A DNA stretch of 64,000 bases from the human T2T-CHM13v2.0 reference genome, Homo sapiens: assembly GCF_009914755.1 (NCBI RefSeq), contig NC_060926.1, one strand, 5' to 3'. The notes beneath the pieces were generated by a model. It made no database searches. It saw only the letters and a list, made by a program, of their open reading frames with translations, and was not told the DNA's origin. Shown in pieces: positions 12,678-14,270 of this stretch. The position numbers were made by a program, and so were the translations under genes. How positions within the stretch are numbered: position 1 is the stretch's first letter; each line of letters opens with the position of its first letter.

Positions 12678-12714
12678 GTGCAGGACAAAGGGGTGACTGC
12701 AGAGCATATACGGG
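12678..12714 (+). repeat. Left copy of 37-bp direct repeat flanking the NUMT
   Basis: gtgcaggacaaaggggtgactgcagagcatatacggg; identical to 12961-12998 apart from one extra C in the right copy. Confidence 0.95.
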
Positions 12715-12960
12715 TCTACATTTAACATTCCAGCCTAACATAACTACCCTAAGGTGTTAATTAATCCATGCTTGAAGGACATAGTAACTAATCAATAGAC
12801 AAACACAATCATTTCCCTTCAGAAGCTTCCTATGGTAAAAATCCACAACCCCTCTCTTCCCCCACCTCTGACCTTATTATTAACCTAGAATAATAATAAC
12901 CCTTGACAAACCCCAAAAACAAGAGGCTAAAATTCAACCCAGCCAGAGCCCAAATAATCA
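12715..12960 (+). other. NUMT: diverged nuclear copy of mitochondrial control region (CSB1-CSB2-CSB3; roughly human m.165-400)
   Basis: gtgttaattaatccatgcttgaaggacata (12754-12783) matches mt gtgttaattaattaatgcttgtaggacata (CSB1). acaacccctctcttccccc (12845-12863) is CSB2-like. tgacaaaccccaaaaaca (12904-12921) matches mt tgccaaaccccaaaaaca (CSB3). Order and spacing are collinear, and the strand is G-poor like the mt L-strand. Confidence 0.9.
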
Positions 12961-12998
12961 GTGCAGGACAAAGGGGTGCACTGCAGAGCATATACGGG
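12961..12998 (+). repeat. Right copy of direct repeat flanking the NUMT
   Basis: gtgcaggacaaaggggtgcactgcagagcatatacggg. Confidence 0.95.
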
Positions 12999-13169
12999 GC
13001 TGGATAGGGCAGTTCAGACGCTAGGAACCTCCATCGTAGGGACCGCTGAGCTTGGCGTTTCAGACACAGGCCCTCTGGATTTGTAACTCCTTTGTCTTGA
13101 AAATGGACTCTATTGGGTAGGGATGAAATAGGATGGAAAGGAGAGACTATCTGCCTTTATCTTTGTAAA

Positions 13170-14270
<1,101 letters not shown>

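What the first reader, a model, noticed from the sequence alone, without database searches (positions are those of the whole stretch)
12715..12960. Fossil mitochondrial D-loop (CSB1-CSB2-CSB3) inserted in nuclear DNA
Seen: a 246-bp G-poor, A/C-rich island containing gtgttaattaatccatgcttgaaggacata, acaacccctctcttccccc and tgacaaaccccaaaaacaaga in that order. Established: these correspond to conserved sequence blocks 1-3 of the mammalian mt control region, downstream of the light-strand promoter, where the H-strand replication primer is processed. Inference: the CSBs are close to human mtDNA while the spacers are clearly diverged. Because the D-loop evolves much faster than nuclear DNA, the insert probably preserves an ancestral primate control region. 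It is short and divergent enough that stringent BLASTN NUMT catalogues could miss it. I cannot tell whether it is already catalogued.
Basis: partly seen in the sequence, partly recalled or inferred. Interest (0 to 1): 0.85.

Follow-up and report, generated by a model that had tools for sequence, protein, structure and literature searches.

The report
Old mitochondrial control-region fragment in chromosome 2
A 243-base piece of an ancient primate mitochondrial control region sits in unique DNA on human chromosome 2; it is an ordinary kind of genomic fossil, unusual only for the 40-base duplication of host DNA on either side and for ending right at the mitochondrial light-strand promoter.

Summary
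Window 12718-12960 (243 bp; A 93, C 69, T 58, G 23) is a nuclear copy of mitochondrial DNA (NUMT) from the CSB1-CSB2-CSB3 part of the control region, in L-strand orientation on the + strand.

- It aligns collinearly with all 24 other control-region NUMT loci of the same genome. In 21 of these 24, tRNA-Phe/12S rRNA homology follows it.
- Its flanks are single-copy, and nothing else in the 64-kb window is mitochondrion-like.
- CSB1 and CSB3 are about 89% conserved. CSB2 is about 61% and the spacers are 50-67%.
- The insert groups (100/98 support) with four NUMTs that lack the tandem repeats of 19 older copies. One of those four predates a ≥20-kb chr7/chr9 duplication with K2P about 0.05. I therefore infer, roughly, an age of 30-50 My.

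New here:
- A unique 40/41-bp direct repeat flanks the insert (12678-12717 and 12961-13001). Recent human/chimpanzee NUMTs show target duplications of only 1-11 nt.
- The insert stops at the light-strand promoter core. It runs about 22 nt past the position equivalent to the H-strand origin.

There is no poly(A), no L1 cleavage site and no sign of function. I could not settle whether the locus is catalogued. The kind is known and interest is modest.

The parts
12678..12717 (.). Left copy (40 bp) of the duplicated target site
   Evidence: Direct repeat with 12961-13001. It differs by one 1-nt indel and one substitution. It occurs only at these two places in the genome.
12716..12717 (+). CT shared by the nuclear target and the mitochondrial sequence (2-nt junction microhomology)
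   Evidence: blastn against the chr7, chr17 and chr5 NUMT proxies starts at 12716. Both repeat copies end in CT.
12718..12960 (+). NUMT insert: the control region from about 22 nt beyond the H-strand origin position (equivalent to about mt 169), through CSB1, CSB2 and CSB3, to the edge of the light-strand promoter core. The + strand is the L-strand (reference) orientation.
   Evidence: Collinear with 24 of 24 control-region NUMT loci. In 21 of 24, tRNA-Phe/12S homology follows. Rfam finds SSU rRNA, tRNA and mtDNA_ssA around the relatives. The anchor is window 12759 = mt 210, from the J01415.2 171-241 row in the supplement of PMC3228558.
12754..12783 (+). CSB1; the ATG-N9-CAT motif lies at 12768-12782
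   Evidence: Mean identity to 22 other copies is 89%. The motif definition comes from 10.1101/706093 and PMC6056714. The sequence was read.
12845..12863 (+). CSB2-like C-rich block (degenerate: C4 TCTCTT C5)
   Evidence: Mean identity is only 61%. It departs from the A3C6 motif.
12904..12924 (+). CSB3; the A3C4A5 core lies at 12908-12919
   Evidence: Mean identity is 89%. The 16-mer 12907-12922 is identical in most of the other copies.
12952..12960 (+). Last 9 nt of the insert, abutting the position of the light-strand promoter core
   Evidence: In L013 the 9 nt at the same offset from CSB3 are followed at once by TCTTT. This is the reverse complement of the AAAGA core given for primate LSPs.
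12961..13001 (.). Right copy (41 bp) of the duplicated target site

Best explanation
This is a solitary, old NUMT. A roughly 243-bp double-stranded fragment of the mitochondrial control region was captured by end joining at a chromosomal break in unique intergenic DNA. The fragment covered the interval from the light-strand promoter edge through CSB3, CSB2 and CSB1 to just past the H-strand origin. The break had long staggered ends, with nicks about 40 nt apart on the two strands. Filling in both overhangs on either side of the captured fragment produced the 40-bp target-site duplication. One junction used 2 nt of microhomology (CT) and the other was blunt. The insertion most likely happened in an early anthropoid or early catarrhine ancestor, very roughly 30-50 My ago. 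Since then the copy has decayed neutrally and has no function now. Shown: mitochondrial origin, limits, duplication, single-copy flanks, and grouping with the later type of control region. Inferred: the staggered break, the age, and neutrality.
For: Mitochondrial origin:
- The genome search gave 33 matches at 25 places, the locus itself plus 24 others.
- All 24 align collinearly with the insert.
- 21 of the 24 continue into tRNA-Phe/12S homology.
- Rfam finds SSU rRNA in 4 and tRNA in 6 of the 7 relatives examined, and mtDNA_ssA upstream in 2.
- The motifs ATG-N9-CAT and A3C4A5 are present, with the spacing given.
- 26 of 32 positions match human mt 210-241 as printed.

Independent insertion:
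- Both flanks are single-copy apart from the 40-bp repeat.
- The best identity to any other NUMT is 77%.
- No other mitochondrion-like piece lies in the window.

Duplication and junctions:
- The repeats are 12678-12717 and 12961-13001, differing by 1 indel and 1 substitution.
- Target duplications from cohesive breaks are documented for 17 of 71 recent numts. The microhomology x blunt class is the commonest, at 33 of 90 (PMC2567098, passages).

Age:
- The insert forms a clade with L002, L004, L011 and L013 at 100/98 support. This clade is apart from 19 loci that carry tandem repeats between CSB1 and CSB2.
- L002 and L004 lie in a ≥20-kb duplication with K2P 0.048-0.056 in the non-mitochondrial flanks, so that NUMT is older than the duplication.
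- No CpG is left in the insert.

No function seen:
- No Rfam family falls in the insert (locus L001).
- It does not overlap the annotated enhancers or lncRNA exons listed with the finding.
Against: - Apart from 32 nt, no true mitochondrial genome was compared, so coordinates and age are indirect.
- The order of the insert relative to L002/L004 and L011/L013 is not secure. AU tests do not reject the insert grouping with L002+L004 (p 0.30) or with L011+L013 (p 0.34). The 12S tree orders those four differently from the control-region tree, at 84/78 support.
- The two repeat copies differ by only 1 substitution in 40 bp. With a recalled neutral rate of about 1.1e-9 per site per year, I would expect about 3-4 differences for 30-50 My. 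One difference is possible (roughly 10-20% chance) but points younger, or to gene conversion.
- A 40-bp duplication is about four times the largest reported for recent numts (1-11 nt). It is about twice the largest in another set of break-repair insertions (4-21 nt). A plain staggered break may therefore not be the right mechanism.
- Presence or absence in other primates was not testable.
Confidence: 0.65

Rival explanations
1. The NUMT is the same, but the flanking duplication was made by copying rather than by a staggered break. In one version, a stalled or broken 3' end switched template onto the mitochondrial fragment, copied it, and returned to the chromosome 40 nt behind its point of departure (replicative template switching). 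In the other version, proximal chromosomal DNA was captured as filler during synthesis-dependent repair.
For: The 40/41-bp duplication exceeds the 1-11 nt seen in 17 of 71 recent numts and the 4-21 nt in break-repair insertions. Capture of nearby chromosomal DNA during repair is documented in primates (PMC2671141, passages). Template switching is discussed as a homology-independent copying route in PMC2567098. There is 2 nt of microhomology at the left junction.
Against: Only one junction shows microhomology and the other looks blunt. There are no further templated fragments or inversions at the junctions (one search found 0 inverted repeats). Nothing distinguishes this route from a long staggered break in the present sequence.
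Confidence: 0.2
2. The insert is a DNA copy of a light-strand-promoter transcript or of the replication primer interval. The source could be 7S RNA or primer RNA, or the RNA-DNA flap that is removed from the nascent H strand. Reverse transcription or RNA-templated repair would then have made the DNA, rather than a random mtDNA fragment being captured.
For: The right end of the insert (12960) falls at the edge of the LSP core. In L013 the positionally equivalent 9 nt are followed at once by TCTTT, the reverse complement of the AAAGA core. 7S RNA starts at the LSP and runs towards CSB1 (PMC10855489). The segment from the LSP to position 191 is the part said to be removed from the nascent strand, namely the primer plus about 100 nt of DNA (PMC6056714). 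By my mapping, position 191 lies about 22 nt inside the left end (anchor). A flanking duplication is present.
Against: There is no A-rich tract at the end that would be the RNA 3' end, which would appear as T on the + strand at 12718. There is no TT/AAAA-type L1 cleavage site at either repeat edge (the motif is recalled). The insert is about 55 nt longer than the 188-nt 7S RNA. None of the 3 other loci whose copy ends within this region (L010, L020, L023) ends at the promoter. One end coinciding with one of many mitochondrial landmarks was noticed after the fact. I put the chance of such a coincidence at a few percent, which is not negligible.
Confidence: 0.1
3. It is not an independent mitochondrial insertion. 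Instead it is a piece of another NUMT moved by nuclear duplication, or a dispersed transposon that merely resembles the control region.
For: Post-insertion duplication of NUMTs does occur in this genome. The chr7/chr9 copies are 93-94% identical over 20 kb, and the two chr10 copies were identical over the 258 columns compared.
Against: The flanks are unique. The best identity to any other copy is 77%. The genome search found only 25 places, and 21 of the 24 others carry mitochondrial tRNA/rRNA homology next to the match. No transposon library was available to test directly.
Confidence: 0.02

Closest known systems
NUMTs (nuclear mitochondrial DNA segments) of the human genome, captured at double-strand breaks by non-homologous end joining
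   Same: It is a non-coding mitochondrial fragment in nuclear DNA. It has no poly(A). The junctions are of the microhomology x blunt type, and it is flanked by a duplication of the target, as in 17 of 71 recent numts.
   Different: The duplication is 40/41 bp against 1-11 nt. The source lies entirely in the promoter-proximal part of the control region. Tsuji et al. found that this part seldom gives NUMTs in human and rhesus (PMC3467031, passages).
The chr7:144.02 Mb / chr9:33.67 Mb, chr5:124.28 Mb and chr17:23.21 Mb NUMTs of T2T-CHM13 (loci L002, L004, L011, L013)
   Same: They share the short-spacer type of control region without tandem repeats between CSB1 and CSB2, and form a clade with the insert at 100/98 support.
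   Different: Those are kilobase-long copies running on into tRNA-Phe and 12S rRNA. This one is 243 bp, stops at the promoter, and is 69-77% identical to them.
7S RNA / light-strand-promoter primer transcript of the mitochondrial control region
   Same: It covers the same interval and has the same promoter-side end, running LSP to CSB3 to CSB2 to CSB1.
   Different: It is about 55 nt longer on the CSB1 side than the 188-nt RNA. It has no poly(A) trace, and there is no evidence of reverse transcription.

Membership tests
NUMT | Significant collinear similarity to mitochondrial DNA | tested here: met
   The test was indirect. The insert is collinear with 24 of 24 control-region NUMT loci, and 21 of these continue into tRNA-Phe/12S homology. 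The direct comparison covers only 32 nt of human mtDNA, with 26 matches. The genome held contains no mitochondrial contig.
NUMT | Embedded in nuclear, non-mitochondrial sequence | tested here: met
   Both 340-bp flanks are single-copy chromosomal DNA. No other mitochondrion-like piece lies in the window.
NUMT | Not explained by a dispersed repeat family | tested here: inconclusive
   Only 25 places were found in the genome, nearly all in mitochondrial context. No transposon consensus library was on hand.
NUMT | Filled site in some species and empty site in outgroups | not testable with these tools
   No other primate genome is held (one search says the genome has no relatives here).
Mammalian control-region CSB domain | CSB1 with ATG-N9-CAT | tested here: met
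   ATG lies at 12768-12770 and CAT at 12780-12782, with nine bases between.
Mammalian control-region CSB domain | CSB3 with A3C4A5 | tested here: met
   The motif lies at 12908-12919 (motif).
Mammalian control-region CSB domain | CSB2 with A3C6-type C run | tested here: inconclusive
   12845-12863 has AAC4 followed by TCTCTT and C5, which is a degenerate form. Mean identity to the other copies is 61%.
Mammalian control-region CSB domain | Order CSB1, CSB2, CSB3, LSP with spacings of about 100, 50 and 50 bp | tested here: met
   The measured spacings are about 80, 59 and 50 bp to the end of the insert. The promoter itself is not included.
L1-mediated retrocopy of a mitochondrial RNA | Poly(A) tract at the RNA 3' end | tested here: not met
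   There is no A or T run at either junction.
L1-mediated retrocopy of a mitochondrial RNA | Target-site duplication | tested here: met
   The duplication is 40/41 bp, longer than the 4-21 nt seen with retrocopies.
L1-mediated retrocopy of a mitochondrial RNA | L1 endonuclease target (TT/AAAA type) at the duplication edge | tested here: not met
   The repeat starts with GTGCAGG and ends with GGGTCT, and neither strand shows the motif. The motif is recalled; TTTTAA is named.

The most novel reading that the evidence does not exclude
The fragment is not a random piece of mtDNA. It is a footprint of the mitochondrial replication-primer interval, running from the light-strand promoter start, through CSB3, CSB2 and CSB1, to just past the H-strand origin. 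It would have been copied into the nucleus from a promoter-initiated transcript or from the excised RNA-DNA primer flap. It would have been integrated by a copying type of repair that left a 40-bp duplication. That would make it a fossil of an RNA-derived, or R-loop-derived, transfer from mitochondrion to nucleus in a primate ancestor.
Probability: 0.1. Interest if true: 0.6.

Novelty: new member of a known kind. Interest (0 to 1): 0.3.

Why it matters
NUMTs are a well-known class, and this one has no sign of function. It is still useful in three small ways.

1. It preserves a state of the fast-evolving control region that lies between the repeat-bearing early-primate form and the later anthropoid forms. 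It can therefore serve as a dated outgroup for control-region evolution once its orthologues are scored.

2. Its 40-bp target duplication extends by about fourfold the overhang length inferred for natural chromosomal breaks from NUMT junctions. Alternatively, it points to a copying mode of repair.

3. It comes wholly from the promoter-proximal part of the control region, which rarely yields NUMTs, and it ends at the promoter. This is the kind of case a genome-wide test of non-random NUMT ends would need.

In practice, a diverged copy like this can be absent from strict BLAST-based NUMT lists.

Tried and rejected
- **ARAGORN.** With bacterial settings it found 0 tRNAs in 8 loci. Rfam's tRNA model did find them, so the ARAGORN blank is uninformative.
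- **Finding a real mitochondrial genome.** The genome held has 24 contigs and none is mitochondrial. A CSB1 pattern scan of viral contigs and of genome contigs gave 0 loci each. Both outputs warn that records near the window's genome may be left out.
- **Catalogue checks.**
  - T2T catalogue (PMC10671835): the held supplement text is cut inside File S1, so the NUMT table (File S2) was not searched.
  - Li 2012 (PMC3467033): the supplement was not searchable.
  - Calabrese 2012 (PMC3314570): a 28-kb supplement had no match to my hg19-style prefixes.
  - Simone 2011 (PMC3228558): the supplement holds alignments of PCR-validated NumtS only, and none has my estimated hg18 prefixes.
  - Uvizl 2023 (PMC10764098): the tables hold no entry with coordinates 42,910,000-42,912,999 except cattle rows. 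Human hg38 is stated only as the genome used to optimise the pipeline, and human is named among the species analysed.
  - These negatives are weak. My hg38, hg19 and hg18 positions are estimates from a recalled tRNA gene coordinate, and I ran no positive control.
- **L1 retrocopy.** Rejected for lack of poly(A) and of a cleavage motif.
- **Hairpin at the target.** The best fold is -7.6 kcal/mol with z -1.66, and 13 of 200 shuffles fold as well. This is not notable.
- **Clock dating from control-region branch lengths.** Rejected. The lengths are far too large for nuclear decay and must be dominated by fast mitochondrial change and alignment noise. I use only the grouping.
- **Transposon.** See the rivals.

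Full report
**What is there.** Window 12718-12960 is a 243-bp stretch with A 93, C 69, T 58 and G 23, in a window that is about 25% each base. A CSB1 pattern with three free positions occurs once in the window, against 0.00 expected from shuffles.

**Is it mitochondrial?** The genome held has 24 contigs and no mitochondrial one, so the test is indirect.
- A search of the whole genome with the stretch gave 33 matches at E ≤ 0.001. I grouped these into 25 places, the locus itself and 24 others.
- I fetched all 24. blastn of the insert hits every one of them, collinearly. The best is 114 bits at 72% over 249 columns, and a MAFFT alignment shows the same.
- These places are true mitochondrial copies. 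Rfam finds a ~960-nt small-subunit rRNA preceded by a tRNA just downstream in L002, L004, L005 and L006. It finds tRNA hits in 6 of the 7 relatives scanned, and the control-region family mtDNA_ssA upstream in L006 and L007.
- Homology to the tRNA-Phe/12S segment of L002 follows the match in 21 of 24 loci. L010, L020 and L023 are truncated copies.
- ARAGORN with bacterial settings found nothing in any locus, which I set aside.
- The only true mitochondrial letters I saw are a 32-nt row of J01415.2 (positions 210-241) printed in the supplement of PMC3228558. The insert matches 26 of those 32.
- Motif definitions from the preprint 10.1101/706093 (passages) and from PMC6056714 (passages) are met for CSB1 (ATG-N9-CAT at 12768-12782) and CSB3 (A3C4A5 at 12908-12919). 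CSB2 is degenerate.
- Block by block, mean identity to 22 other copies is 89% for CSB1, 89% for CSB3 and 61% for CSB2. It is 50-67% for the spacers and ends (L009 and L023 were left out as partial).
- This agrees with PMC2673036 (passages), which found that of the control-region sites it tested only CSB1 and CSB3 gave trustworthy alignments across primates and other mammals.

**Is it an independent insertion?**
- The left flank (338 bp) matches only itself and the right repeat copy.
- The right flank (340 bp) matches itself, the left repeat copy, and four short unrelated places that align to a different part of the flank.
- Against four NUMT proxies covering the control region and the adjoining rRNA genes, the whole 64-kb window matches only at 12716-12960.
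- The highest identity to any other copy is 77%.

**The flanking duplication.**
- 12678-12717 and 12961-13001 are direct repeats of 40 and 41 bp. They differ by one 1-nt indel and one substitution, and there are no inverted repeats. They are the only two copies in the genome.
- The structure repeat-insert-repeat cannot come from a later tandem duplication, so the repeat arose with the insertion.
- Both copies end in CT. The proxy alignments start at 12716, so 2 nt are shared between target and fragment at the left junction. The right junction shows no shared bases.
- Hazkani-Covo and Covo (PMC2567098, passages) found target duplications of 1-11 nt in 17 of 71 recent human and chimpanzee numts. 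They ascribed these to cohesive breaks. Microhomology x blunt was their commonest junction class, at 33 of 90.
- Pace et al. (PMC2671141, passages) list 4-21 nt for break-repair insertions.
- The present 40/41 bp is therefore of the known kind but well outside the reported range.
- A fold of the target shows nothing notable.

**The limits in mitochondrial terms.**
- From the J01415.2 row, window 12759 corresponds to mt 210. By ungapped counting, 12718 corresponds to about mt 169. The absence of indels in that interval rests on my recollection of the reference.
- Position 191 is the major 5' end of nascent H-strand DNA (PMC6056714). It then falls near 12740, about 22 nt inside the insert.
- On the other side, the 16-mer CSB3 core is followed by 29 + 9 nt in both the insert and L013. 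In L013 the next letters are TCTTT. This is the reverse complement of the AAAGA core that the preprint gives for primate light-strand promoters, which it places about 50 bp from CSB3.
- The insert thus stops at the edge of the promoter core. In the human numbering as I recall it, this is about mt 402-405, with transcription starting at 407. Both numbers are recalled, not from a call.
- 7S RNA starts at this promoter, ends at CSB1 and is listed as 188 nt (PMC10855489, passages). The insert is about 55 nt longer on that side.

**Age.**
- In the alignment, 19 loci carry tandem repeats of a CACGTA-like unit between CSB1 and CSB2. The insert, L002, L004, L011 and L013 do not.
- An ML tree was built from 24 rows and 258 columns, with L023 left out as a 55-bp fragment. 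It puts the insert with those four at 100/98 support, and the four together without it at 98/96.
- AU tests do not reject the insert grouping with L002+L004 (p 0.30) or with L011+L013 (p 0.34). A 12S tree orders the four differently, at 84/78. I therefore claim only membership of the later group, not the exact rung.
- Polarity comes from the 32-nt human row. L011 and L013 match 30 of 32, L002 28, and the insert 26 (my count).
- L002 (chr7) and L004 (chr9) lie in a duplication that spans all 20 kb I fetched. K2P is 0.048-0.056 in its non-mitochondrial parts, so their NUMT predates that duplication.
- With a recalled neutral rate near 1.1e-9 per site per year, the duplication is about 20-25 My old. 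With the same rate, the end branches of the old cluster in the 12S tree (median 0.067) suggest about 55-60 My.
- These bounds give a rough 30-50 My for the later group and for the insert.
- The single substitution between the repeat copies is fewer than the 3-4 I would expect for that age, which is a mild point against it.
- Control-region branch lengths themselves are unusable as a clock.
- PMC2671141 cites a burst of primate NUMT integration at 30-42 Mya.

**Mechanism.**
- The best reading is passive capture of a double-stranded mtDNA fragment at a break with about 40-nt staggered ends, followed by fill-in.
- One rival is a copying repair, either template switching or capture of proximal DNA.
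- A bolder rival is that the fragment derives from the promoter-initiated primer or 7S transcript, or from the excised primer flap. This reading rests on the promoter-side end and on the interval covered.
- Against the bolder rival: there is no A/T tract at either junction, no L1-type cleavage motif, and a length mismatch with 7S RNA. None of the three other copies that end in this region (L010, L020, L023) ends at the promoter.

**Function.** None is indicated. No Rfam family falls in the insert (locus L001 shows only Alu-type hits downstream). It overlaps none of the enhancers or lncRNA exons listed with the finding.

**Known or not.**
- Tsuji et al. (PMC3467031, passages) report that the promoter part of the control region, 600-1120 bp from its start, seldom gives NUMTs in human and rhesus. 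This insert comes entirely from that part.
- Whether this locus is in published lists remains open. The one usable negative is the tables of PMC10764098, and it depends on a position I estimated from a recalled coordinate.
- The supplements I could not read may hold it: File S2 of PMC10671835, the Li 2012 table, and the Tsuji tables.

Noticed in passing
L034+L039 (G000 C7:144,010,001-144,030,000) and L035+L040 (C9:33,664,001-33,684,000): The chr7 and chr9 control-region/12S NUMTs sit in a segmental duplication that covers the whole 20 kb fetched. Identity is 93-94% and K2P is 0.048-0.056 in the non-mitochondrial parts. One NUMT insertion was therefore copied later, together with its surroundings.
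   Followed up: partly
Loci L003, L005-L007, L012, L015-L022, L024, L025, between the CSB1 and CSB2 homologues: Most of the older NUMT copies keep tandem repeats of a CACGTA-like unit between CSB1 and CSB2. The later copies (L002, L004, L011, L013 and the insert) lack them. This is a fossil record of a repeat array that the primate control region later lost.
   Followed up: partly
L019 (G000 C2:126,246,893-126,250,389), about 1560-1890: An Alu-like element (recognised from the recalled consensus, antisense, with a T-run) is inserted into the CSB1-CSB2 spacer of this NUMT.
   Followed up: no
L024 and L025 (G000 C10:48.52 Mb and 47.59 Mb): Two NUMT copies on chromosome 10, in opposite orientation, are identical over the compared region. 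This indicates a very recent duplication.
   Followed up: no
L016 (G000 C2:212,255,768-212,258,874): This NUMT begins inside CSB1, at the ATG-N9-CAT motif, and runs on into 12S rRNA. It is another copy with an end at a control-region landmark.
   Followed up: no
window 13461-13743: Alu-type hits (Metazoa_SRP and mir-1268 models below their gathering scores) lie about 500 bp downstream of the insert. They match the masked stretch 13454-13805.
   Followed up: no
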